DNA of 64,000 nt from Dehalococcoidia bacterium (GCA_965219085.1 OZ244720.1:1920001-1984000), one strand, 5' to 3'. Shown: positions 41,894 through 60,423, counted from the first letter of the stretch. The notes: generated by a model from the letters alone, not told the origin. Numbers and translations are program-made.

Positions 41894-42205
41894 CGCCTCT
41901 TATCACCGAGTCGAGGCAACAGGTGCCGACCCCCTGAGTGAGAGCCCAGGCGGTCGGGGTGTCTGACGAGCGCGCCGCCGCCGGGAGCTGGGTCGCCGAT
42001 CCTGCGGCTGTGGAGTGAGGAGCGCGCCGCCGCTCCGCCCTTACTGGTACTTGTGGAGCGAGGTCGTCGCCGGCGGCCTCTCGTGTGCCGTCGACAAAGG
42101 CGACTGCCCTGTCACAGTCGCCGCAGTGGGGCGACCCCTATGGCCCGGCGTATGATCGCGGTCTCATGCGACGGTCGGCCTCCCTCGTCCGACAGGAACA
42201 CGCCC

Positions 42206-44660
42206 GTGGATGTCCATGCGACCCCGAGCCCGAGTTGCCCCACCCGCACCCTCGACGATGCACCCGCCGACAAGGACGATCTCGGATCGCACGAGCCCAT
42301 CGCCGCCGCCATTCACGAGTTGGTGATGGGCGAACCAGGTGGCCGCACGATCGGACTCGAGGGTCGCTGGGGCTCTGGGAAGTCCACGGTCGTCCGGCTG
42401 CTCGACGAGCGCATGCGTGGCCCCGACGCGCACGTTGTCGTCTTCGATGTTTGGGCGCACGAGGGCGATCCCTTGCGCCGCTCCTTTCTCGAGACGCTCA
42501 TCGACAGCCTGTGCGAGAAGCGGTGGATCGACTGCGAGGCGTGGCGCGCACGGCGCGAGAGCCTTGCCGTGCGGCGTCGCGTCGAGCACACGCGGCCAAG
42601 GATCACGAGGCCGGGCGTGGTCGCCAGCGCGGCGACGGCCCTCGTAGCGATCCTCGTGCCCACGGGTGTCGCGCTGCTCAGCGCCGGGCTGGCGGTGGGC
42701 GCATCCGGCATCTGGATCCCGGGTGCAGCGATCCTGTCGGTGCTCGTGCTCGCTGCGATTTTTCTCGCGGGACTGCTCCTGCTGCGCTGGCCGGACGCCA
42801 CCGGCGAATCCTGGCTCGTGCCGTTCTCGGTGCGGTCGGTTACCGAGTCCGACCGCGAGACGATCGAGACGCCGAACCCAACGTCGGTCGAATTCGAGCA
42901 GGTGTTTCGGGAGTTCATGGGCGACGCGCTCGGCGGCTGCCCCGAGAGGCGGCTCGCCCTCGTCGTCGACAACCTCGACCGCGTGGCGCCGGAGGATGCG
43001 CGCTCGGTCTGGGCGACGCTGCAGACGTTCCTGCACCACCCGCACGACCCGCGCGCGAGCTGGCTGCGCTCGCTCTGGGTCGTGCTGCCGTTTGATCGCG
43101 TCGGCATCAACCGCCTCTGGGACGGCTCGGGTGAGGCCGCAGACTCCTTCCTCGACAAGAGCATCCAGGTGCATTTCGAGGTGCCGTTGCCGCTGCTCAC
43201 CGACTGGCGCGAGTACCTCGCGTCGCTCCTGCACGACGCGCTCCCGGAGCACACCGCGCACGGCTACACGGTCTACCGCCTCTTCCAGTCCCGGCCGTCG
43301 CTCGGGAGAGGGCACCAAGTCCTCGCGAGTTGAAACTTTACGTCAACCGCATCGGCGCGCTACACCGGCGCTGGCAGCATGAGCTGTCGTTCGGGAGCCT
43401 CGCGTACTACGCAAGCCTCGGCAAGGTAGCTGATGACGTGGCTCAGGACTTGCGTAGGGATGGGTTCCCCACGCCTGACGTGACTCCGCTGCTCGACGCC
43501 CGCATCGAGGGGCATCTCGCCGCCCTCGCCTTCAACACTGCTCCAGAACGTGCGCTGCAGCTGCTGCACGGGCCCCGGATCGATAATGCTCTGATGCGTG
43601 AAGAGGCGGACGGGCTTCTCGATCTCGCCAGTCGGCCGGGATTCTGGGAGGCGCTCATGGGGTCGGCGTTCGCACGGGTGCCCTCGTCGGCGCCGCCCTC
43701 GCTGCTGCTCGCCGCCAGCCGCCTCGCGGAGATCCCGGAAAAGATCCGTCCCGCTGCCGAGTGGGGCGAGGTCACGGAGTTACTCGCCCGGGCCGGGCGC
43801 GAGGCAGACGGGTGGCCCACGCTGACTCCCGTGTCGGCCTCGCGCCTCTCGGACCTCCTCTCCCTCGTCGGCCAGCCCGCTGCGGAGGAGATCGCGGCGA
43901 GGGCCACAGCTGCGCCGCTCGCGGCGGGCAACGGTGCGGAATGGGCCGCGGGAGCGCACGCGCTCTTGAGCCGGTTCGAGTGGCTGACCGTGCGGGCATC
44001 TGGCGACCCGGAGGCGATCTGCGATGCCCTCGCCGCCTTCTCTCGGATCGCGGGCTGGGATCAATTCGTCGCGAGGCTCGCCGTAGAGCCGGACGACCGC
44101 GCCGCGCTCGACGCGACGCTCGTCGGACGGGTCGCTCAGGCGCCGGGGGAGGCCTTGCCCGCTCTCGATGTGCTCCGTCGTGCGGATACTAGCATCAAGT
44201 TGAAACCGTTTGCGCTGGTTGCTGCGAACTGGCTGCGTGACTCGCGGGGGAGGCCGCCCGAAACAAGCACGGGCGAGGCCAGGGGCCTGCTTGGAATCCT
44301 GCGCGCGGCTGTCGGTGGCTCACCGGAGGAGCGCAGGGACCTGGTCGGCAGGGGAGTGGCGTTCGAGTGCGCCAGCATCGCGAGTGCTCAGGGAGACGCC
44401 GCGGGCGCTCGGGGACTGGCTCTACGAGGTGCTGCGGTGGTCGACGCCAGAGGAGCGTGCGGCGTTCGCCCAGACGAATGAAGCGCGGCATGGGATGGAG
44501 CTACTCGCTGGCATGCTGGCGTAGCCATCGAGCGAGCTCGTCGGCCCGCTCGTGCAAGCGATCAGGCGCCTTCCCAACTTCGACTTCATCTCCGTGATCC
44601 GCGAACAGACCGGGGGCAAGCGCCTGGCGGCCGCCCTCACCGACGAACTCGAGATGACCT
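42206..44660 (+). pseudogene. KAP-family P-loop NTPase with two TM helices and a long helical C-terminus; frameshifts near 43290 and 44400
   Basis: Walker A GRWGSGKS, FDVWAHEGD, Walker B VVDNLDR, FLDKSIQVHF. PSPRELKLYVN lies in the next frame. Confidence 0.8.
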
Positions 44661-50524: not shown

Positions 50525-51495
50525 GCAGGGTGGCGCTGTCCCGGGACTCCGCTCCGGACAGGCTCGCTCAGCACGATGACCGTCGTCGCGCTCCCGGTGC
50601 TCGCGCCCACTCGCGGTCGGTCGCCGCCAGGCGGCCGCGTGCCGAGCCGCCGAACCACGTCTCGGCGCTAGATTCCCAGTTCGACTAGACTGTAGACAGG
50701 CGGGTCCTGAAGCTGGTCAACATCGTTGACGAGCACACGCGCGAGGCGCTGGCGATGGTGGCCGTGCAGGCGCATCGGCGCCGACGCCACCGCCTCAACG
50801 CTCGAGCGGATCGTGGCCTGGCGCGGGACGGCGCCTAGCAGGGTGCTGAAAAAGGCGCGGCCATCTGGCAGGATGGGGCTGGCGGCGGGGGCATAGCCTG
50901 GGAGGCAGCCCCGTGCGAGGTGACGCCGAGCGCCAGACCAACATGTTGCTGGCGGTGACGCCGGACTCGTTTGTCCCGGCCGAGCACCCGATCCGCCGCA
51001 TCAAGCCGATCGTCGACGCAGCGCTGGCCCGGCTCTCGCCGCTGTTCGACACGATGTACGCCAGGGGCGGCCGGCCCTCGATCCCGCCCGAGCACCTGCT
51101 CAAGGCGAGCCTGCTGATCGCGCTCTACTCGATCCGCAGCGAGCGCCAGTTCTGCGAGCGGCTGCGCTACGACCTGCTGTTCAAGTGGTTCTTGGACCTC
51201 AACATCTCAGACGAACCGTTCGATGCCTCGAGCTTCTCGAAGAACCGCGAGCGCCTGCTCGCAGCGGACGCCGCGCATGCCTTCTTCGCCGAGGTGGTGG
51301 CCGAGGCAAAGCGCCGCCGGCTGCTCTCCGCCGAGCACTGCACGGTGGACGGGACGCTGCTCGAGGCCTGGGCCTCACTCAAGAGATGGCATGAGGGCCG
51401 GTCTCTTCCTCAAGGGGGATACTCGCCCCCGAAACAGCGGCCTCGATGGGCCAGAACGGCTCTTTGCGGAGCTTTGACGAGGTAGGAGACCGGCC

Positions 51496-52908: not shown

Positions 52909-53819
52909 GTCGGGTAAGGGGCTGGCGCGGTACGAGCCGTAGGCAGTGGCGCTTATCCCGCCGGTTTCCCGCCGGTGCTCACTTCCACGTGCCGTAGCCA
53001 ACGCCCGTTTCCAGCCCCTCCCCTTCGAACCGTGCATGCGGTTCTCCCGCACACGGCTCACCGACGTCCTTCACCGGATGGCATTCGGCCCCGCCCGCCA
53101 CGCACGCTCCACAACGTCCCTGCGGTGGACTTTGTCGTAGAGCGCGTGAAAACGTCGCTCGGCTCGGCCTTGGCCGCCCGGTAGAGCGTGTGCTGTAGTT
53201 CTCGGACCTTTTGCTCGGCGGTTCTAGCCACGACGGGCACTCGCCAATCCTTCCCCAAGCTACACGCGCAGACGAAGTAGCGGCCCTTCCCTCACCGGCG
53301 GTTCTGTTGTCCGCTCGGCTCAATCGGTACTATGGCCGCCTCCGACTCCCTCCCGGCCGGCTACCCACTTCCCGGTTCGTCACCGGTTATAGGGCACCTC
53401 GCTCCGGCACCAATCCGCAGGCGCCGGACCGGGGAGGGCCTCCCCAGTTCCCGCCGTCACCTTCCACACGTTCCGCGCCCTCTACGCCGGGAGGTTCTTC
53501 GGGGTTGCGCCTCCAGGCTCTTCACCCCTTCCATGGCCTTCGCCCTGACGGCCGGGGCTCGGCTCCTCCTTGTTCCCACCATGCGGTGGGTATGTTCACG
53601 ACGCGGCAGACTTCGCTTCATGCTGCGGACCGCGTGGTCGCTCCCCCTCAAGGGCTTTCGACATCGGGCTCCGGCCCGGCCCGTTTCCAGACCCGACCGC
53701 CGATCTGCTACCGGGCCCCCTGGCAGTTACCCGGACCGGACTTTCACCGGTAGGCGACGACGAGCATGTCTCCGGACTGATCAGATCATTCTGCACCGTC
53801 CTTCGACTTCAGGGCGCAC
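52909..53819 (-). ncRNA. Group II intron (911 nt) with almost completely deleted RT/maturase ORF
   Basis: 5' GTGCG; domain V GAGCCGTGTGCGGGAGAACCGCATGCACGGTTC; 3' CTTACCCGAC. ORF stub KVRELQHTLYRAAKA. Boundaries confirmed by comparison with intron-less copy A (GAAAG|ACCGTCCC). Confidence 0.92.
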
Positions 53820-54999
53820 ACCGTCCCTCATAGAAGCTACCGCCCGCGCGACGAGCAGGAGCCACCCCCGGGCGGACGCAACCCGGATGTCGACTTCCGC
53901 GGGCGGCGGCGCAGCCGCGATACGCATAGCTCCGGCACCGACCCGCAGGCGCGGCTGTACACAAAGGGAGCGGGGCAGACGGCGAAACTCAGCTACATGG
54001 GCCATCTGCTGACCGAGAACCGTCACGGTCTGGTGCTGGACGTGGAGTTGACCGAGGCGAACGGGTACGCCGAGCGCGAGGCGGCGGTCACGATGCTGGA
54101 GCGCAGCGTGAGCGGCTGCGGGACGCTGGGCGCCGACCGCGGCTACGACACGCGCGACTTCGTGGCGGAACTGCGCGCGCGCGGCGTGACGCCGCACGTG
54201 GCGCAAAACGACCGCGGCCGCCGCAGCGCCGTGGACGGGCGCACCACGCGGCATCGCGGCTACAGGCAGAGTCAGAAGCGACGCAAGATCGTGGAGCAGG
54301 TCTTCGGCTGGATGAAGACCGTGGGCGGCGGGCGCAAGCTGCGTTTCGTGGGCCGCGAGCGCAACCGCGGCTGGCTGGAGCTCACCGCCGCCGCCTACAA
54401 CCTCGTGCGCATGGCCAGGCTCGAACTCGCCCCTGCGTAGGCGCAGTGCGCCCTCCGGCCGGTCCGGGAGCCCTCAGAGGCCCCCGGGGGCAGGTCAGGA
54501 GGCCACCATCACGAACCCGGAGGCGGCCTCAAGCCGCCTCTCGCCACTCCGAGACCCCGGAAGGGCGCTTCTTCAGCACCCTGCTAGGTACATCCGTTGC
54601 GACAACGGGCCAGAGCTCGCGGCGAACCCGCTACGCGACCTGGTGCCGGTTCTCCAGCACTGGCAGCAACTACACCGAGCCCGGTGCGCCGTGGGAGAAC
54701 CCGTATGTCGAATCGTTCAACGGCCCGCTGCGCGACGAGTTCCTGGCTGTCAAGCACTTCGACAGCCTGCTCGATGCGCAGGTACTGATCGAGGGCTGGC
54801 GGATCGAGTACGGCACGAGTCGCCCGCATCGTAGCCTGGGCTGGCTCACCCCGGCGGCCTACGTCGAGCGCTGGGAGGCTCCGCAACATGCTCGACTCTC
54901 ATAAGTGGTGGTCTCGCGAGGAGGGTCCGGTCATCGGCATGCGAAGAGGTGGATCGGGGCCACAAGGAAGTCGTGTGGAACTCGCCGTCGGACCCGAAC

Positions 55000-56406
55000 T
55001 TACCGAGTGGAACGTTCGAGGTTCGGCGTGAGATCCACCGCTGTAGCCGTGAGCGCCGAGTACTCGCACCCATCACTACAGGGAGTGGTTCTCTGCACCT
55101 CCATGGTGCCAGGATAGCCATCGTAGGTCTGCGGGCCGATGCCGCCGATGCGAGGAGAGCCCGTCACGAGCCCGACAAGTTGGAGCACCTCGTGGGCGGC
55201 GACGCTCATGCTGAATGGGAAGACGTTCCGGCCCGAGAGCGCGGCCTTCTCCTCGTCGCTGAGTCCTTCGATGTAGTCAGGGTCGTCGAGTTTCCCTTCA
55301 CGATCGAGGGCGACATCGCTGCGTCGCAATTGGCCGAGGCAGACCATGCAAGCGCGGCCCGGACCGACAGTGTGGATCCGCCAGGCGACGTGCTGCGGGA
55401 TCCCATCGGACTTCACCCGTGCCATGATCCCGCCATCGATGATGGGGATGAGGTGGCTGTAGGCGAGAGCGTTGAGCAGGTGCCGCGGCCACGGCCGGTC
55501 GACGCAGGAGATGAGGACGTCGCAGTCGAGTGCGGCCGCCAGTCCTGCTGGCGAAAGCAAGCTCTGTGGGAACGGGCGCAGCTCGAGTTCGGTGGCGGTC
55601 GAACTCAGAACGGCGTTGCGCGCCGCCAATTGGACCTTGAGGAGACCCGCTTCGACATCGGCCCCTGTGGCACCGACCGTTCGATCGAGGTTCCGAAGTT
55701 CGAGCTTGTCGAAATCGATGTACGTCAGGCGCCGCACACCCATGCGGGCCAGCGCCTCGGCGACGAGGCTCCCCACGCTTCCGAGCCCGACGATGCCGAC
55801 GCGCGTGCGTACGAGTTGCTGCTGTGCAACCTCGCCCCACACGCTCACCGTCGCGACTTGACTGGCGGTCACGGTCGCACGGGCCTCATCAGGGTGGTAC
55901 GAGGTGGAGAGTTCTGAGCCCACTACGCGGACCGACCGGGCCCCCCGGCGCTCGAAAGTGCGTGGCGCCCGGCGGATCCAGAACCGGCCGCTCCATGCCC
56001 CATCCAGCGCCCGTGTGAGCCCGACGAGCGGCAAGCCCGTGCGGCCGAACACGGCACCTGCAATCCGGTCGCGCTCGGCTACCACATCGTCGTGGCTCAT
56101 CCCCTGCCAGCCGGCGTGAGGGTGCCCGTGCAGGAAGGCGACACCGCAGCCCTCGGGGATGTCGGACAGCACTCGCCGCAGGTACTGAGAATGGAACGAC
56201 ACGTTGCCGTGGAGGACTCGGTCCCCAGCTTCGGGGAAGACCAGTTCTGTAATGACGGCCGTGTGGCGGTGCTGCCCGACACTCGGCTTCCAGTATGCGA
56301 AGGCCAGGTCTTCCTGGCGCGCATCCTCGTGGAGGTGCCCCCTGAGCACCTGGTCGTGGTCGGCCGTCATCGCCACCGAGAGATCGAGCGCGGTGGCGTC
56401 GATCAT
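55000..56406 (-). CDS. JAB/JAMM-like domain fused to ThiF/E1-like adenylyltransferase
   Basis: RQEDLAF...FLHGHP...MSHDD (JAB); GIVGLGSVGS, DFDKLELRNLDR, SCVDRPWPR, CMVC, DYIEGL (E1). ATG overlaps the upstream stop. Confidence 0.9.
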   Translation of the reverse strand: MIDATALDLSVAMTADHDQVLRGHLHEDARQEDLAFAYWKPSVGQHRHTAVITELVFPEAGDRVLHGNVSFHSQYLRRVLSDIPEGCGVAFLHGHPHAGWQGMSHDDVVAERDRIAGAVFGRTGLPLVGLTRALDGAWSGRFWIRRAPRTFERRGARSVRVVGSELSTSYHPDEARATVTASQVATVSVWGEVAQQQLVRTRVGIVGLGSVGSLVAEALARMGVRRLTYIDFDKLELRNLDRTVGATGADVEAGLLKVQLAARNAVLSSTATELELRPFPQSLLSPAGLAAALDCDVLISCVDRPWPRHLLNALAYSHLIPIIDGGIMARVKSDGIPQHVAWRIHTVGPGRACMVCLGQLRRSDVALDREGKLDDPDYIEGLSDEEKAALSGRNVFPFSMSVAAHEVLQLVGLVTGSPRIGGIGPQTYDGYPGTMEVQRTTPCSDGCEYSALTATAVDLTPNLERSTR

Positions 56407-56777
56407 GCCACTGGCCACCGGTCGTCGCAGAGGACAGTGAGAATGTGTGCCCAGAGGCCGCGCGGCGTCGGGCGGTGGTCGTAGCGCCGGCTCCAGTACA
56501 GTCAGTCGGGGCCGATCCCGCTCTCCATGGTCTTCAGCGGCTCGCTCCCGTCCATGGGGACTAGGTGAGGGCGGGTGTGGATGGCCGGCGGCACCACGTA
56601 GGGGGCCGCGTCGACACGCTGGATGGCGACATCGCAGCGCCGACCGCGCAAGGCACCGCTCGGCAGTTCGAAGTCGCGAACCACCGAGTAGTTGTTCCCG
56701 TCGTCGCCGCTGAGAACCTCAGCGGTGAGACCGAGGCCCCGGACGTATTCCTCGAAGTCGTCGGCGGTCATCGTCAC
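56403..56777 (-). pseudogene. Prokaryotic E2/UBC-like protein with in-frame TGA at 56502-56504
   Basis: YVVPPAIHTRPHL...GIGPD*LYWSRRYDH...LWAHILTVL. Read-through ends at TGA 56403-56405, overlapping the E1 ATG. Confidence 0.72.
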
Positions 56778-57058
56778 GAGACGGGTGTCGCGCCCTTGAA
56801 CGTGGCCGTGAACTCCTCGCCGGACTCGACGGGGACGGGCTTGTCTGCGGACTCGAAGTGGTGCTGATCGGAGTCGCGGGTGAGTTCGTACTCCTCGACG
56901 GGGGTGAAGCCGGCGCTCGCGAGGATCTCACCCACCGTCAGGGTGAACGGCTCGCGATCGGGGGGCTTCTGGTAGGCGTGCGTGACCTCCTCGCCGTTCA
57001 CGAAGTACTTGATGACTTCCTCCCCGGCACCCGGCCGGGCCACAACTTCCTGCGTCAC
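56774..57058 (-). CDS. Ubiquitin-like (multiubiquitin-type beta-grasp) protein
   Basis: RBS AGGAG then GTG; IKYFVNGEE...LTVGEILASAGF...YELTR...VESGEEFTATFKGATPVS. Operonic with E2 and E1. Confidence 0.75.
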   Translation of the reverse strand: MTQEVVARPGAGEEVIKYFVNGEEVTHAYQKPPDREPFTLTVGEILASAGFTPVEEYELTRDSDQHHFESADKPVPVESGEEFTATFKGATPVS

Positions 57059-57146
57059 GGGTATGCTCCTCGTGAACTGCTCTACCGCGCGCCAGAGATG
57101 TAGCGTGCTGCCGTAGGTGACAAGCGTTGATCGAACCTGATACTTT

Positions 57147-57163
57147 GTCAACTGTGGGTTGAC
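57147..57163. promoter_or_regulatory. Palindromic operator overlapping back-to-back -35 hexamers
   Basis: GTCAAC-tgtgg-GTTGAC. TTGACA on the minus strand (57146-57151) and TTGACC on the plus strand (57159-57164). Confidence 0.6.
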
Positions 57164-57217
57164 CACGAGGCGTCAGGCCTCGCAGTTGGCAAGAGGGCAA
57201 CATCGGGAGGTGCCGCG

Positions 57218-58375
57218 ATGCTGGGCGAACGGCTACGCCAGGCAAGACTGGCGGCAGGGCTATCGCTGGAGGGCCTCGCCGAACGGCTGGAGCGACCGCT
57301 TACCAAGCAGGCGCTGTCGAAGTACGAACGCGGCCTGTCGCAGCCGCCCCCGAGCCGAATCGCAGACCTCGCAGCGGCGCTCAACGTGCGGACATCGTCG
57401 CTGCTCGCGGAAGCTGATGTCGAGATCAAGTGGGTCGCCTACCGGAAGCTCCAGCGGCTGAGCAAGTCCCGACAAACGCAGGTCACGGCCGTCGCGACGC
57501 AACGACTCGAGAGCGAGGTCAGGCTCCGAGAGCTGTTCCATCTCGCCGACCGCCACGACCTGCCGGGCCCGATTGAGGTCCGCCACATCCACGACTGCGA
57601 CGCCGCGGCAGCGCACTTACGGATGCTCTGGAACCTCGGGGACCGCCCCGTCGATAGCCTTATCGAACAGATCGAGGAGCACGGGTGTGCGGTCGTGACC
57701 TGGCCGGAGGAGTGGGGCTTCGACGGGCTCTCGGGGTGGGCGAACCAGACGCCTGTGCTCGTGCTCAACGAGGCAGCGCCACCGGATCGCTTCCGCTTCA
57801 ACGCGGCGCATGAGATAGGCCATCTCGTCATGAAGAGCACAGGCGATGCGAAGATCGATGAGGCGTTCGCACACCGCTTCGCAGCTTCCTTTCTCGTGCC
57901 GGCCGAGGCGGCTCGCCGTGAACTTGGTCAGCGGCGCCGGGGACTCGACATGGACGAACTGGGCCTCCTCAAGCAGCGGTGGGGCCTGAGCATGCAGGCT
58001 TGGATTCGCCGCGCGCACGACCTCGAGATCATCAGCGCTCAGCTGTACCGTCGACTGAACATGCGGTTCCGTCGGGAGGGATGGCACCGCAAGGAACCGG
58101 TCGAGTACGCGGGAACTGAGTCGCCAACACTGCTTAGGCGACTCGTGCTGCGCGCGCTGACCGAGCGGATGATCACATCCGAGGAGGCAGATCGCTTCTA
58201 CCCGGGCTCCTCAAGGGATGCCCCGCAGGGGCCGTCCGGTCGTTCCTCGCTGCGAGACCTCGCCAAGCGGCCGATTGAGGAACGCCACCAAGCGATTCGC
58301 GCAGCTCGGATCACAGTCGACGCCGATGAGACCGAGGCGTGGGACGAGACTGTGGGCGACGGTCTCGAGGAGTGA
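57218..58375 (+). CDS. XRE HTH plus ImmA/IrrE (M78) metallopeptidase with C-terminal MazE-like antitoxin tail
   Basis: LGERLRQARLAAGLSLEGLA...SKYERG; RFNAAHEIGH, EAFAHRFAASFL; tail ETEAWDETVGDGLEE. Confidence 0.9.
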   Translation: MLGERLRQARLAAGLSLEGLAERLERPLTKQALSKYERGLSQPPPSRIADLAAALNVRTSSLLAEADVEIKWVAYRKLQRLSKSRQTQVTAVATQRLESEVRLRELFHLADRHDLPGPIEVRHIHDCDAAAAHLRMLWNLGDRPVDSLIEQIEEHGCAVVTWPEEWGFDGLSGWANQTPVLVLNEAAPPDRFRFNAAHEIGHLVMKSTGDAKIDEAFAHRFAASFLVPAEAARRELGQRRRGLDMDELGLLKQRWGLSMQAWIRRAHDLEIISAQLYRRLNMRFRREGWHRKEPVEYAGTESPTLLRRLVLRALTERMITSEEADRFYPGSSRDAPQGPSGRSSLRDLAKRPIEERHQAIRAARITVDADETEAWDETVGDGLEE

Positions 58376-58746
58376 GCGGATCGGAGTCGGCAACCGTGCC
58401 GCCGACGCGCGGCGAGGTCTGGCTGGTCCGCCTGCCGCGTGCGGTGGGTGCTGAGCTTCAACGGGTGCGTCCAGCGGTGATCGTGAACTCCCCTGCGTTT
58501 GATGCGGTGCCGGTCCGCATCGTCGTGCCGCTCACGACGTGGCTCGCCGAGTTCACCGGGAGCAGCAACAAACTCCTGATCGAGGCGAGCGAACGAAGTG
58601 GCTTGGACGCGGACTCTGCAGCCGACTTCCTGCAGGTCCGCAGCGTGTCGGTGGAGCGACTCGTGCAACGGCTTGGGGGGCTGGATGCGGATCTCGTCGA
58701 GGAGATCGTCGCCGGCATCGCGATCGCCCTCGACTACCAGCCGTGA
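58372..58746 (+). CDS. mazF: PemK/MazF-family endoribonuclease toxin
   Basis: RGEVWLV...GAELQRVRPAVIV...VVPLTT...SGLDADSAADFLQVRSVSVERL. GTG overlaps the upstream TGA. Confidence 0.9.
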   Translation: MSGSESATVPPTRGEVWLVRLPRAVGAELQRVRPAVIVNSPAFDAVPVRIVVPLTTWLAEFTGSSNKLLIEASERSGLDADSAADFLQVRSVSVERLVQRLGGLDADLVEEIVAGIAIALDYQP

Positions 58747-58822: not shown

Positions 58823-59800
58823 TTACGTCGCGGCAGTTGCGCCGTCACGACCAGCGGCACACGCTCGATTTGGTCGGTTCTGAACAGTGATACCCATGTT
58901 CGTGCAATGGTGAGAAAAATCCTCACCAAATCTACCTATTTCGTGCGGGATCATGCCCTCAAGCGCGCCTGACGCTCCGTCGTCGGTTTTCTCGATCGTG
59001 ACGGAGATCTGCATCGCCTCGGCGACATTCTTGAGCCGACCCGCCTCGATTTCCTCCTCGACGCGCTCCCGGAGCGCCTCGCACGTGGCGGCGAACTCGT
59101 CGGGGTTCGCGGGAGTGCGGGGCGCCGAACCAGAGCCGTTCAGTCGAGCGATGGTTACCTCGGCCGGCGAGCGGCGGGTGCGAATGACCTCGAGTTCCTT
59201 CTGCAGGTACGCCTCATCGATCTCGCCCATCTGGAAGAGCTTGAGCACCCGCTGTCGCTGATTGTCGAGCGACGCGAGGAGTTGCTGAGCCGCGGTCAGG
59301 TCGTCATCGCGCGCGTCGTCTGACGACGCATGCTCAAGCTCTGCCAGCACGACCTCCGGCGATGCAAGAACCGTTGTGAGCTCGCGCGCCACCGCGCGCT
59401 CGGGGTCACCCGCGCGGACGTAGCGCGTCGGACAGCGGTCGTGACGCGGACCGGCGTAGGCCCGGCGGCAGAGGTAGTAGCGGTACTTGCCCATCGATGT
59501 CTGGCCAACCATCGCCCCGTTGCAGCGGGCGCAGCGCATGAAGCTGCCAAGCGGGTAGTCGTTCTTGCGCTGCGCCTGGCGTCGCCGCTCGGGGTCCAGG
59601 AGCCGCGTCTGCGCCGCGTTGAACAGCTCCTCGGAGATGACCGCCGGCGTCGCGTCGGGTACCTCGATCCACTCGGACTCGTCCCTCAGTTCGACGATAC
59701 GGCGGCGCTTCCCCGCTGACGGGGTCTCGCCGGTGCCGGGTCTTCGTGCGCTTGAAGATGGTGCGCCGGGCGTCCCCCGGGTTGCGCAGCATGTTCAGCA
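58823..59800 (-). pseudogene. C-terminal remnant of a large serine recombinase (recombinase tail, Zn ribbon, coiled coil)
   Basis: VLNMLRNP...; WIEVPDATPAVISEELF; YPLGSFMRCARCNGAM...YRYYLC. Catalytic N-terminus missing. Confidence 0.8.
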
Positions 59801-59987: not shown

Positions 59988-60183
59988 CTTCACCCTCCCC
60001 TGCGGCGTAACCTCCTACATGTGACGATGTTGTTGGCGGTTCGGGTAGTGCGGGCGACCTCCGCCGGGTACCCGCAGTGCGAGGTCGAGCGCCCGCCAGG
60101 CGCGGTGCGGGAGTTGGACTGCTCGCCCCTGAGGGATGACGCGGCGTATTGGCAACATCTGCCAAACCTGCGAGCGCAGCAAC

Positions 60184-60423
60184 ATGAGCACGATGACCGT
60201 ATCGCTCCCCGAGGCCCTCAAGTCCTTCGTGGACCAGCAGGTCAGCGCCCGCGGCTACAGCTCGTCAAGCGAGTACGTCCGCGAGTTGATCCGCAAGGAC
60301 CAGGATCGCCAGCGCCTGCGCGGTCTGCTCCTCGAAGGCGCGTCGTCGTCGCCGGCGGTCACCGCCGGTGCGGACTACTTCGGACGGCTTCGCGATCGCG
60401 TCCGTGAAGCCCGACAGCGGTGA
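60184..60423 (+). CDS. parD: ParD-family RHH antitoxin
   Basis: MSTMTVSLPEALKSFVDQQV...GYSSSSEYVRELIRKDQDRQRLRGLLLEG. Confidence 0.88.
   Translation: MSTMTVSLPEALKSFVDQQVSARGYSSSSEYVRELIRKDQDRQRLRGLLLEGASSSPAVTAGADYFGRLRDRVREARQR

What the first reader, a model, noticed from the sequence alone, without database searches (positions are those of the whole stretch)
55000..58746. Ubiquitin-like conjugation operon wired to an XRE-metallopeptidase with a fused MazE tail and a coupled MazF toxin
Seen: a translationally coupled minus-strand operon (Ubl, E2-like, JAB-E1 fusion) is divergent from an XRE-HTH/HExxH peptidase gene. That gene overlaps mazF (GTGA), and one palindrome covers both putative -35 boxes. 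Established: Ubl/E1/E2/JAB operons (Bil, Bub types) are linked to antiphage defence and often lie beside HTH plus metallopeptidase regulators of the CapH/CapP or ImmR/ImmA type. Inference: one protein may act as repressor, damage-sensing protease and antitoxin. A single proteolytic event could then derepress the conjugation operon and free an mRNA interferase. I do not recognise this combination as described.
Basis: partly seen in the sequence, partly recalled or inferred. Interest (0 to 1): 0.85.

Follow-up and report, generated by a model that had tools for sequence, protein, structure and literature searches.

The report
Bub-like ubiquitin operon beside RmrA-MazF module
A bacterial ubiquitin-like tagging operon, broken here by one stop codon, sits head-to-head with a widespread toxin-antitoxin pair whose antitoxin is also a repressor and a protease, so a single sensor may control both a tagging arm and an RNA-cutting arm.

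Summary
The minus strand carries a coupled Ubl (94 aa, start 57058), an E2 and a JAB-E1 fusion. The plus strand carries an XRE-HTH/M78 gene overlapping mazF. The two share a 159-bp control region with a conserved palindrome.

The operon is a relative of Type I Bub (6E) systems:
- Its best solved matches are Citrobacter BubCD and BubB.
- The E2 has an invariant Ser and no conserved Cys; the E1 has an invariant crossover-loop Tyr.
- It differs in having unfused Ubl and E2 genes and no DUF6527/BubE.
- Here the E2 is a real nonsense allele, TGA at an invariant Trp. Near-identical sequences in other runs carry TGG.

The regulator is RmrA-like (RosmerTA antitoxin, 4.7e-53). RmrA+MazF is an autonomous pair found in many phyla: 61 of 80 loci examined. 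A roughly 60-aa C-terminal tail occurs only in MazF-linked copies and is predicted to bind a MazF dimer. It shows no detectable MazE homology.

In the window's clade this pair sits opposite three different Bub-type operons, in the slot that sister operons give to CapH/CapP. Shared control is therefore plausible but untested.

Each component class is already published. The combination is a new variant.

The parts
55000..56406 (-). bubCD-like gene: an N-terminal JAB/JAMM peptidase fused to an E1 adenylation domain (468 aa from the ATG at 56406)
   Evidence: ThiF 2.6e-28. The best solved relative is Citrobacter BubCD, 1.1e-14. Residues invariant in 19 of 19 relatives: JAMM E32/H93/H95/S104/D107, the Gly-rich loop, and Y378 in the LDDPxY crossover loop. 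The Zn cysteines C353/C356/C447 are also invariant, and C443 is kept in 18 of 19.
56403..56777 (-). bubB-like E2 gene, here a pseudogene with an in-frame TGA at 56502-56504
   Evidence: Translation shows the stop. The stop replaces a Trp kept in all 18 homologues, 4 residues before the family's invariant Ser94. A family profile hits Citrobacter BubB at 2.1e-5, aligning that Ser with the WSRH motif of BubB. The AF2 model has pLDDT 89.2, and its top Foldseek hit is 9eae_C BubB, prob 0.99, TM 0.57. At 56502 the T allele is exact in contigs of runs X1 and X4, and the C allele (TGG) is in X6 and X8.
56774..57058 (-). bubA-like ubiquitin-like protein: a single beta-grasp domain of 94 aa with the conserved C-terminus G-x-T-P-x-S
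   Evidence: The start is set by the RBS and by homologues. Alignment A3 has 17 sequences. The AF2 model has pLDDT 79.0. Foldseek hits are all beta-grasp or Ubl folds, including multi-ubiquitin 9d5b and 9cd2 and BubA 9ea8_B, with E>=1.8e-3. The family profile gives weak hits to multi-ubiquitin/BilA, E 0.007.
57059..57217 (.). shared divergent control region
   Evidence: A comparable spacing of about 154-157 bp in L022 and L024, which I derived by hand from the ORF coordinates and the contig ranges. Alignment A1. One promoter-like site on the + strand at 57117-57144.
57147..57163 (.). palindrome GTCAAC-N5-GTTGAC, the probable RmrA operator
   Evidence: It is the only exact copy in the window, where 0.05 are expected by chance. 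An exact copy lies roughly 50-70 nt upstream of rmrA in L001/L022, L002/L024, L020, L023 and L025. None is present in the Ubl operons without rmrA, L003-L018. It is also present where the window-type Ubl operon is absent (L020, L025).
57218..58375 (+). rmrA-like gene. XRE HTH at residues 1-67, M78/ImmA Zn-peptidase at residues 154-266 (HEIGH at 57809-57823), a helical linker to about residue 324, and a MazF-binding tail at residues 325-385 (58190-58372)
   Evidence: HTH_3 1.2e-11 and Peptidase_M78 6.5e-15. PADLOC RmrA 4.7e-53, capP 1.5e-12, capH 4.3e-9. NCBIfam spr1629 repressor/antitoxin 2.3e-28, which is below its cut-off. H198, E199 and H202 are invariant in 43 of 43 sequences.
58372..58746 (+). 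mazF/pemK toxin gene. The GTG at 58372 overlaps the rmrA stop; other possible starts are 58339 and 58396
   Evidence: PemK_toxin 1.4e-19. The alignment of 43 sequences has invariant R13, W17, E28 and P53, with R33 and T55 nearly invariant.

Best explanation
Two modules are joined head to head on a horizontally acquired islet that is riddled with insertion sequences.

(1) Minus strand. This is a three-gene, BubE-less relative of Type I Bub (6E.1) ubiquitin-like conjugation systems.
- It encodes a single-domain Ubl, a cysteine-less E2 with an invariant serine, and a JAB-E1 fusion with an invariant crossover-loop tyrosine.
- By analogy with Citrobacter Bub, the E1 would adenylate the Ubl C-terminus and pass it on through Tyr and Ser oxyesters.
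- In this genome the arm is dead, because the E2 carries TGA in place of an invariant Trp just before the catalytic Ser.

(2) Plus strand. This is a RosmerTA-like type II toxin-antitoxin pair.
- RmrA (XRE HTH + M78 Zn-peptidase) carries a roughly 60-residue C-terminal tail that wraps a MazF dimer and holds the endoribonuclease inactive.
- The HTH most likely binds the GTCAAC-N5-GTTGAC palindrome and autorepresses.

(3) Inferred link. In this clade RmrA occupies the slot that CapH+CapP fill in sister operons, so it probably also represses the divergent Ubl operon. A trigger such as DNA damage, ssDNA or a phage cue would activate the peptidase domain and destroy RmrA. That one event would derepress the operon and free MazF.

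Shown by computation: gene identities, the broken E2, the tail-MazF co-occurrence, and the recurrent adjacency.
Inferred: DNA binding, co-repression, the trigger and the cleavage.
For: Bub kinship:
- The best solved hit for the E1 is BubCD, 1.1e-14.
- The E2 family profile hits BubB at 2.1e-5, with the invariant Ser aligned to the WSRH motif of BubB. BubB is also the top fold hit.
- Cys46 of the E2 is not conserved, while S94 is invariant in 19 of 19.
- Y378 of the E1 is invariant in 19 of 19.
- Bub chemistry and architecture are taken from PMC11601596, sections 5-7 and legends.

Broken E2:
- All 18 homologues have Trp at the stop position.
- Exact 734-nt contigs in X1 and X4 carry the T allele. 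All covering contigs in X6 (40.6 of 40.6) and X8 (17.4 of 17.4) carry C.

TA module:
- PADLOC RmrA 4.7e-53.
- A MazF frame sits at the rmrA stop in 61 of the 80 loci examined; those 80 are the best of 266 relatives found.
- The tail beyond residue 324 is 52-75 aa in 61 of 61 MazF-linked copies. It is 15-32 aa in 17 of the 19 others.
- In the complex model of a MazF dimer with RmrA 318-385, ipSAE is 0.79 in three runs, best of 3 controls 0.02, partner pLDDT >=63, and >=74% of contacts are shared between runs. That mark was reached by 58 of 80 solved complexes and 2 of 110 mismatched pairs. W375 contacts MazF P53 and Q88.

Link between the modules:
- In the clade with RmrA >=62% identical, 8 of 11 loci have an E1-type operon opposite rmrA, of three kinds. 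The window type is in L022, L023, L024, L026, L029 and L030. A canonical Type II Bub (Multi_ubiq + ThiF + DUF6527) is in L020. A Prok-E2_E + JAB-ThiF operon is in L028.
- In the E1 tree, the six RmrA-MazF-linked operons share a starred 8-row clade with L004, which has XRE + capP-like genes in the same slot, and with L003.
- Four Poribacteria loci place rmrA-mazF next to an E1-like (Cap2-like) ORF. In L048, the one whose neighbours were scanned, these genes form a Type II CBASS operon just upstream.
- XRE/M78 genes flank 10 of 18 relatives of the operon.
Against: - RmrA+MazF is mainly autonomous. 63 of the 69 more distant loci have no E1-like ORF within about 5 kb.
- The palindrome travels with rmrA, not with the Ubl operon. 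It is present in L020 and L025 and absent from L003-L018.
- Adjacency inside defence or mobile islands can arise without shared regulation. The close loci are kin, so they are not independent counts.
- No promoter for the minus-strand operon passed the consensus scan.
- The complex score may partly reflect memory of solved MazE-MazF structures, and it used my own alignments.
- The family lacks BubE, lacks the BubAB fusion, and lacks the His at +2 of the E2 Ser. The oxyester chemistry is therefore an extrapolation.
- The Ubl ends in Ser, not Gly.
- In this genome the E2 is broken, so any coupling currently has no Ubl output.
Confidence: 0.6

Rival explanations
1. Neighbours only. RmrA-MazF is a self-contained toxin-antitoxin, defence or addiction module that autoregulates at its own palindrome. 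The Bub-like operon has its own promoter and its own unknown control. The adjacency reflects shared carriage on a mobile islet and recombination at a hot spot.
For: - A MazF frame follows rmrA in 61 of 80 loci across many phyla, and 63 of the 69 distant loci have no E1-type neighbour.
- The palindrome follows rmrA even where the window-type operon is gone.
- The region is packed with IS and intron remnants.
- The operon was found in only 1 of 40 related genomes.
Against: - Three different Bub-type cargos sit opposite the same rmrA-mazF lineage, in the same head-to-head geometry of about 155-160 bp.
- The slot is the one used by CapH+CapP-type pairs in sister operons.
- CapH+CapP regulation of adjacent operons is established for CBASS and proposed for Bub (PMC11601596, PMC13373217; passages).
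Confidence: 0.3
2. The TGA in the E2 is not a defect. It would be a sequencing error, or a recoded codon (Trp or Sec), and the operon would be functional here.
For: The stop falls exactly on a codon that is Trp in all homologues, and TGA differs from TGG by one base.
Against: - Exact contigs from two studies reproduce the T (X1, X4), while variant contigs carry C.
- TGA ends the Ubl, E2 and rmrA genes in the same locus, so it is read as a stop here.
- No SECIS search was made.
Confidence: 0.04
3. The M78 domain of RmrA is the toxin or effector (the older 'COG2856 toxin / Xre antitoxin' reading), and MazF is an unrelated second toxin with an unannotated antitoxin.
For: Makarova et al. 2009 listed COG2856 as a predicted toxin paired with Xre (PMC2701414, passages).
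Against: - RmrA-type proteins were validated as antitoxins (PMC10440598, passages).
- The tail-MazF co-occurrence and the predicted interface point to RmrA as the MazF antitoxin.
- There is no other small ORF between rmrA and mazF; the genes overlap.
Confidence: 0.05

Closest known systems
Type I Bub (6E.1/DUF6527) operons, e.g. Citrobacter BubAB-BubCD-BubE (Ye, Gong, Chambers, Corbett; PMC11601596)
   Same: - A JAB-E1 fusion, which is the best solved match.
- An E2 of the Prok-E2_E/BubB kind, without a conserved Cys and with an invariant Ser aligned to BubB's WSRH motif.
- An invariant Tyr in the E1 crossover loop.
- A beta-grasp Ubl of the multi-ubiquitin kind.
- Frequent HTH + M78 regulators nearby.
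   Different: - The Ubl and E2 are separate, coupled genes rather than a fusion.
- The Ubl has one beta-grasp domain and ends in G-x-T-P-x-S.
- The His two residues after the E2 Ser is not conserved; Arg, Pro or Asn take its place.
- No DUF6527/BubE was found in the own genome or in 5 related genomes.
- The Pfam Prok-E2_E score is below the cut-off.
RosmerTA (RmrT/RmrA) and the older Xre-COG2856 fusion + toxin class (Millman et al. 2022 preprint; Ernits et al. 2023, PMC10440598; Makarova et al. 2009, PMC2701414)
   Same: - The antitoxin has an XRE HTH plus an ImmA/M78 Zn-peptidase; the PADLOC RmrA match is 4.7e-53.
- It forms a two-gene operon with a toxin.
- It is spread over many phyla and mobile elements.
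   Different: - The toxin here is a MazF/PemK endoribonuclease, which matched no PADLOC model.
- The passages I read name PIN, RelE and membrane toxins as partners, not MazF.
- A dedicated tail of about 60 aa marks the MazF-linked copies.
MazEF type II toxin-antitoxin
   Same: - A PemK/MazF toxin.
- The antitoxin gene lies upstream and overlaps the toxin gene.
- An acidic, Trp-bearing C-terminal tail is predicted to lie across a MazF dimer.
   Different: - There is no AbrB/SpoVT or RHH DNA-binding domain, and the tail shows no detectable MazE homology.
- DNA binding is by an XRE HTH, and the antitoxin carries its own metallopeptidase.
CapH+CapP (and CapK+CapS/VapKSC) 'controllers of adjacent pathways' (Lau et al. 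2022 as cited in PMC13373217; PMC11601596)
   Same: - HTH repressor and M78 peptidase chemistry; PADLOC capP 1.5e-12 and capH 4.3e-9.
- Placement at the promoter side of Bub and CBASS operons.
- There is a precedent (VapKSC) for a Cap-type sensor reused to control a toxin.
   Different: - The HTH and peptidase are fused in one protein that also carries an antitoxin tail, and a toxin gene follows it.
- In VapKSC the regulator role and the TA role lie in separate operons. Here both could reside in one protein.

Membership tests
Type I Bub (6E.1) | JAB/JAMM peptidase fused to the E1 (BubCD) | tested here: met
   ThiF domain at residues 186-336. The JAMM residues are invariant. The best PDB hit is BubCD.
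Type I Bub (6E.1) | Ubl fused to the E2 (BubAB pre-protein) | tested here: not met
   The two are separate ORFs with a stop between them, both in the window and in all homologues where both were found.
Type I Bub (6E.1) | DUF6527 serine protease BubE in the operon | tested here: not met
   PF20137 was not found in the own genome (92.7% complete) or in 5 genomes holding relatives. It is present in L020's different operon.
Type I Bub (6E.1) | E2 without a catalytic Cys and with an invariant Ser (plus His and Asp) | tested here: inconclusive
   The Ser is invariant and aligns with BubB's WSRH motif, and the Cys is not conserved. The His at +2 is not conserved. The Asp was not assessed.
Type I Bub (6E.1) | E1 crossover loop with an invariant Tyr and no catalytic Cys | tested here: met
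   Y378 is invariant in 19 of 19. The conserved cysteines there form a CxxC...CxxxC pattern typical of a structural Zn site. That reading of the cysteines comes from general knowledge of ThiF/MoeB, not from a test.
Type I Bub (6E.1) | Ubl exposing a C-terminal Gly after JAB cleavage | tested here: inconclusive
   A Gly lies 6 residues from the end in 15 of 17 sequences, and 14 of 17 end in Ser. The mature end is unknown.
RosmerTA | RmrA antitoxin: XRE HTH + Zn-peptidase | tested here: met
   14 PADLOC RmrA models matched, the best at 4.7e-53 over residues 4-323. HExxH is invariant.
RosmerTA | An adjacent toxin neutralised by RmrA | tested here: inconclusive
   A MazF gene overlaps the rmrA stop. 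Co-occurrence and the complex model support binding. No PADLOC model matches this toxin. Toxicity and neutralisation were not tested.
RosmerTA | Protection against phage | not testable with these tools
   Needs plaque assays.
MazEF | MazF/PemK toxin | tested here: met
   PF02452, 1.4e-19.
MazEF | MazE antitoxin with an AbrB/SpoVT-type (or RHH) DNA-binding domain | tested here: not met
   The only domains found are XRE HTH and M78. The region 58100-58375 gives no Pfam family at E<=10.
CapH+CapP | Separate HTH repressor and M78 peptidase genes | tested here: not met
   Here they are fused in one 385-aa protein. Split pairs are present in L004, L007, L009 and L018.
CapH+CapP | Encoded at the promoter side of a defence operon, which it represses until DNA damage | tested here: inconclusive
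   The position is met, with a divergent 159-bp shared region. Repression and the trigger were not tested.

The most novel reading that the evidence does not exclude
One polypeptide (RmrA with a MazF-binding tail) acts at once as operator-bound repressor of a Bub-type ubiquitin-like conjugation operon, as a signal-activated self-destroying metallopeptidase, and as the MazF antitoxin. A single proteolytic event would then fire two effector arms: Ubl conjugation and mRNA cleavage. On this reading the cassette is a portable 'Cap + toxin' controller that has been swapped between at least three Bub-type operons and Type II CBASS.
Probability: 0.35. Interest if true: 0.75.

Novelty: new variant of a known kind. 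Interest (0 to 1): 0.55.

Why it matters
Bub operons have a worked-out chemistry, but their biological role and trigger have not been demonstrated (PMC11601596 discussion). Three things here make the regulation question testable.

- A Bub-like family exists that has no BubE and whose Ubl ends in Ser.
- Within one lineage, the regulator slot is filled alternately by CapH/CapP or by an RmrA-MazF cassette.
- That gives natural swap experiments for asking what signal turns these systems on.

The finding also defines a large, apparently undescribed subfamily of MazF toxin-antitoxin pairs. Their antitoxin is an XRE-metallopeptidase, which suggests protease-gated rather than Lon/Clp-gated release of MazF. 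If the dual-output model holds, it would be a compact example of one sensor coupling a targeted response to an abortive one.

Tried and rejected
- Pfam, NCBIfam and PADLOC gave nothing for the Ubl, or for the truncated 91-aa E2. The single-sequence PDB search for the E2 gave only a chance hit. Profiles were needed.
- 'MazE tail': no family matched residues 295-385, so MazE homology is rejected.
- Selenocysteine or recoding of the TGA was considered and rejected on the read evidence and on local stop usage.
- BubE was sought and not found.
- Expression: no RNA holder was listed. This says nothing either way.
- L014's XRE + Pkinase neighbour was considered as CapK/CapS and rejected, because CapK is a GHKL kinase with STAS domains and L014's protein is a Pkinase.
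- Literature searches for the combination found no paper describing an ImmA/M78-type antitoxin paired with MazF, and none describing such a pair beside a Bub operon.
- I did not scan L010, L012, L005 or most of L003 for regulators. Only the best 80 of 266 RmrA relatives were examined.

Full report
**What is there**

The region 55000-58746 holds five genes in two divergent units.

On the minus strand:
- A 468-aa JAB-E1 fusion, 55000-56406.
- An E2-like gene, 56403-56777, interrupted by TGA at 56502-56504.
- A Ubl gene ending at 56774.

The E2 stop overlaps the E1 start as ATGA. The Ubl stop overlaps a GTG as GTGA, with an ATG two codons further on.

Homologues and a GAGGAG box place the Ubl start at GTG 57058, giving 94 aa, rather than at the first in-frame start at 57166. 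The shared intergenic region is therefore 159 bp.

On the plus strand:
- A 385-aa protein, 57218-58375, has an XRE HTH, a Peptidase_M78 domain and HEIGH.
- A PemK/MazF gene follows it. Its GTG at 58372 overlaps the upstream TGA.

**Setting**

The flanks are mobile-element debris:
- An IS110 transposase, split DDE/DUF772 pieces and an rve_3 fragment.
- A group II intron remnant at 52909-53061 and 53618-53753.
- A truncated serine-recombinase fragment, a ParD-like gene and a Mutator-type transposase.

The own genome is one 3.3-Mb contig. The E1 was found in only 1 of 40 related genomes searched, at 45% identity, and that one was among the 18 congeners. The locus is accessory. Its closest relatives are in Dehalococcoidia/Chloroflexota MAGs, with the E1 at 85% identity.

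**The Ubl operon is Bub-like**

The best solved relative of the E1 is Citrobacter BubCD, 1.1e-14, ahead of MoeB.

In an alignment of 19 E1s, the following are invariant:
- The JAMM residues E32, H93, H95, S104 and D107.
- The nucleotide-binding glycines.
- Tyr378 in an LDDPxY segment of the crossover loop.

The conserved cysteines there form a CxxC...CxxxC set.

The E2 read through its stop scores 21.8 bits on Pfam Prok-E2_E, below the cut-off of 25. A profile of 19 family members hits Citrobacter BubB at 2.1e-5 and aligns the family's invariant Ser94 with the Ser of BubB's WSRH motif. That motif holds the catalytic S333/H335 described in PMC11601596 (passages and legends). Cys46 is not conserved.

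The E2 model (pLDDT 89.2) has BubB as its top Foldseek hit, prob 0.99 and TM 0.57, followed by eukaryotic E2/UEV folds. All of these are at E>=0.04.

The Ubl model (pLDDT 79.0) matches only beta-grasp and Ubl structures, including multi-ubiquitin proteins and BubA, at E>=1.8e-3.

[quoted passage not shown] This family departs from that in four ways:
- The Ubl and E2 are separate genes.
- The His at +2 of the E2 Ser is replaced.
- The Ubl has one domain and a conserved G-x-T-P-x-S end.
- DUF6527 was not found in the own genome or in five genomes with relatives.

I therefore file it as a relative of Type I Bub and not as a member.

**The E2 is broken, and the break is real**

All 18 homologues have Trp where the window has TGA, four residues before the invariant Ser.

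Contigs of public runs laid on the locus show the following:
- The T allele lies in exact 734-nt contigs of X1 and X4, with a minor C allele alongside (3.8 of 11.5 and 6.33 of 12.3).
- Only C, giving TGG, is seen in X6 (40.6 of 40.6) and X8 (17.4 of 17.4).

The best holders may be the window's own source, so they are not independent. The C allele in other studies does show that an intact form circulates. In this genome the conjugation arm should be inactive.

**The regulator and MazF form a widespread module**

The 385-aa protein matches 14 PADLOC RmrA models, the best at 4.7e-53. It also matches capP (1.5e-12) and capH (4.3e-9).

RosmerTA antitoxins are HTH + ImmA-protease proteins paired with diverse toxins (PMC10440598 and Millman preprint, passages). 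Xre-COG2856 fusions next to PIN or RelE toxins were noted in 2009 (PMC2701414, passages).

I examined 80 relatives, the best of 266 found:
- 61 have a MazF frame at the rmrA stop. A few are damaged: L021, L054, L087 and L090.
- All 61 extend 52-75 residues beyond position 324.
- Of the 19 without MazF, 17 extend only 15-32 residues. One exception, L036, stops at a contig end. The other, L070, is unexplained.

The tail has no Pfam match. It does keep a basic helix followed by an acidic, Trp-bearing end.

A model of a MazF dimer with RmrA 318-385 scored 0.79 in three runs, against 0.02 for the best of three controls. Partner pLDDT was >=63 and >=74% of contacts were shared. That mark was reached by 58 of 80 solved complexes and 2 of 110 mismatched pairs. 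The tail touched both protomers, and W375 lay against MazF P53 and Q88. The model supports binding but does not show it, and solved MazE-MazF complexes may contribute to the score from memory.

HExxH is invariant in 43 of 43 sequences.

**The palindrome**

GTCAAC-N5-GTTGAC at 57147-57163 is the only exact copy in the window, where 0.05 are expected by chance.

Among all loci held, the exact form occurs only upstream of rmrA in close relatives. These include L020 and L025, which lack the window-type operon. It never occurs in Ubl operons without rmrA.

It is therefore RmrA's element, most simply its operator. Whether it covers -35 boxes is open. The one promoter-like site found, at 57117-57144 on the + strand, would put it at the rmrA transcription start.

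**Are the two modules linked?**

Evidence for a link:
- Among the 11 loci with RmrA >=62% identical, 8 have an E1-type operon opposite rmrA, of three different kinds.
  - The window type is in L022, L023, L024, L029 and L030, and in L026 with a split E1.
  - A canonical Type II Bub (Multi_ubiq, ThiF, DUF6527) is in L020.
  - A Prok-E2_E (3.3e-18) plus JAB-ThiF operon is in L028.
- L027 keeps only a Ubl-like N-terminus on a 781-aa protein. L021 and L025 have none.
- In the E1 tree, the six RmrA-MazF-linked operons fall in one starred 8-row clade. That clade also holds L004, which has an XRE gene and a capP-like M78 gene in the same slot, and L003, which has nothing there.
- Across 18 relatives of the operon, 10 have XRE/M78 genes close by. 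L001 and L002 have RmrA-MazF. L004, L007, L009 and L018 have split pairs. L015 and L016 have M78 genes. L013 and L017 have fused RmrA-type genes.
- Four Poribacteria loci (RmrA about 38% identical) have an E1-like (Cap2-like) ORF beside rmrA-mazF. In L048, the one scanned, rmrA-mazF sits directly after a Type II CBASS operon of SAVED, SMODS, Cap2 and Cap3.
- The literature reports CapH+CapP next to 31% of 544 Bub operons. It also reports a Cap-type sensor reused in a separate toxin-antitoxin operon, VapKSC (PMC13373217, passages).

Evidence against a link:
- 63 of the 69 more distant RmrA loci have no E1-like neighbour.
- The close loci are kin.
- Islands shuffle.

**Verdict**

- The gene identities and the broken E2 are well supported.
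- RmrA as the MazF antitoxin through its tail is well supported computationally.
- Co-repression of the Ubl operon and a single-cleavage dual output are plausible inferences. I put them at about 0.5 and 0.35 respectively.
- The component classes are all published. I did not find the combination, or the BubE-less family, in the searches I ran. Supplements were not visible to me.
- It is a new variant of known kinds.

Noticed in passing
window 56774-56800 (Ubl C-terminus); alignment A3: The Ubl family ends in a conserved G-x-T-P-x-S. Ser is the last residue in 14 of 17 sequences. Two members (L008, L015) carry 4-5 extra residues after that Ser. The mature C-terminal residue may therefore be Ser rather than the usual Gly, or a 5-residue propeptide may be trimmed.
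   Followed up: partly
window 52909-53061 and 53618-53753 (-): A group II intron remnant (Rfam RF00029 and RF02003). Only an N-terminal scrap of its reverse transcriptase is left (53058-53258, no Pfam hit). It lies between an IS110 transposase and a DDE transposase fragment. DUF772 (50913-51485) and DDE_Tnp_1 (53997-54440) look like two halves of one transposase split by later insertions.
   Followed up: partly
L020:2943-4875 (-): A rmrA-mazF pair 87% and 83% identical to the window's faces a canonical Type II Bub operon (Multi_ubiq, a 377-aa ThiF protein, DUF6527) instead of the window-type operon. The cargo has been swapped beside a conserved regulator.
   Followed up: partly
L048:14-6528 (also L054, L064, L066): In Poribacteria MAGs, rmrA-mazF follows directly after a Type II CBASS operon (SAVED effector, SMODS cyclase, Cap2, Cap3).
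   Followed up: partly
L013:3340-4881 and L014:3331-4755: Two Bacteroidota operons with nearly identical E1s have different neighbours. One has a fused RmrA-type gene plus an unknown 146-aa protein. The other has an XRE gene plus a Pkinase-domain protein.
   Followed up: partly
L027:2570-4915 (-): A 781-aa protein opposite rmrA-mazF starts with a Ubl-like segment (53% identical to the window's Ubl). It continues into a region with only a weak Cadherin-like hit. No E1 or E2 was found.
   Followed up: no
L004:11849-13339 (-): A second RmrA-type gene (PADLOC 4e-50), followed by a 166-aa protein matching PADLOC candidate PDC-S70, lies 5 kb downstream of a CapH/CapP-flanked Bub-like operon.
   Followed up: no
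window 60136-60423 (+) and 58823-59539 (-): A ParD/RHH-like antitoxin gene with no obvious toxin partner called, and a serine-recombinase fragment (Zn_ribbon_recom only), lie just beyond mazF.
   Followed up: no
window 42053-43333 (+): A KAP-family P-loop NTPase followed by a 383-aa protein with no Pfam match. It may be another defence-type pair in the same island.
   Followed up: no
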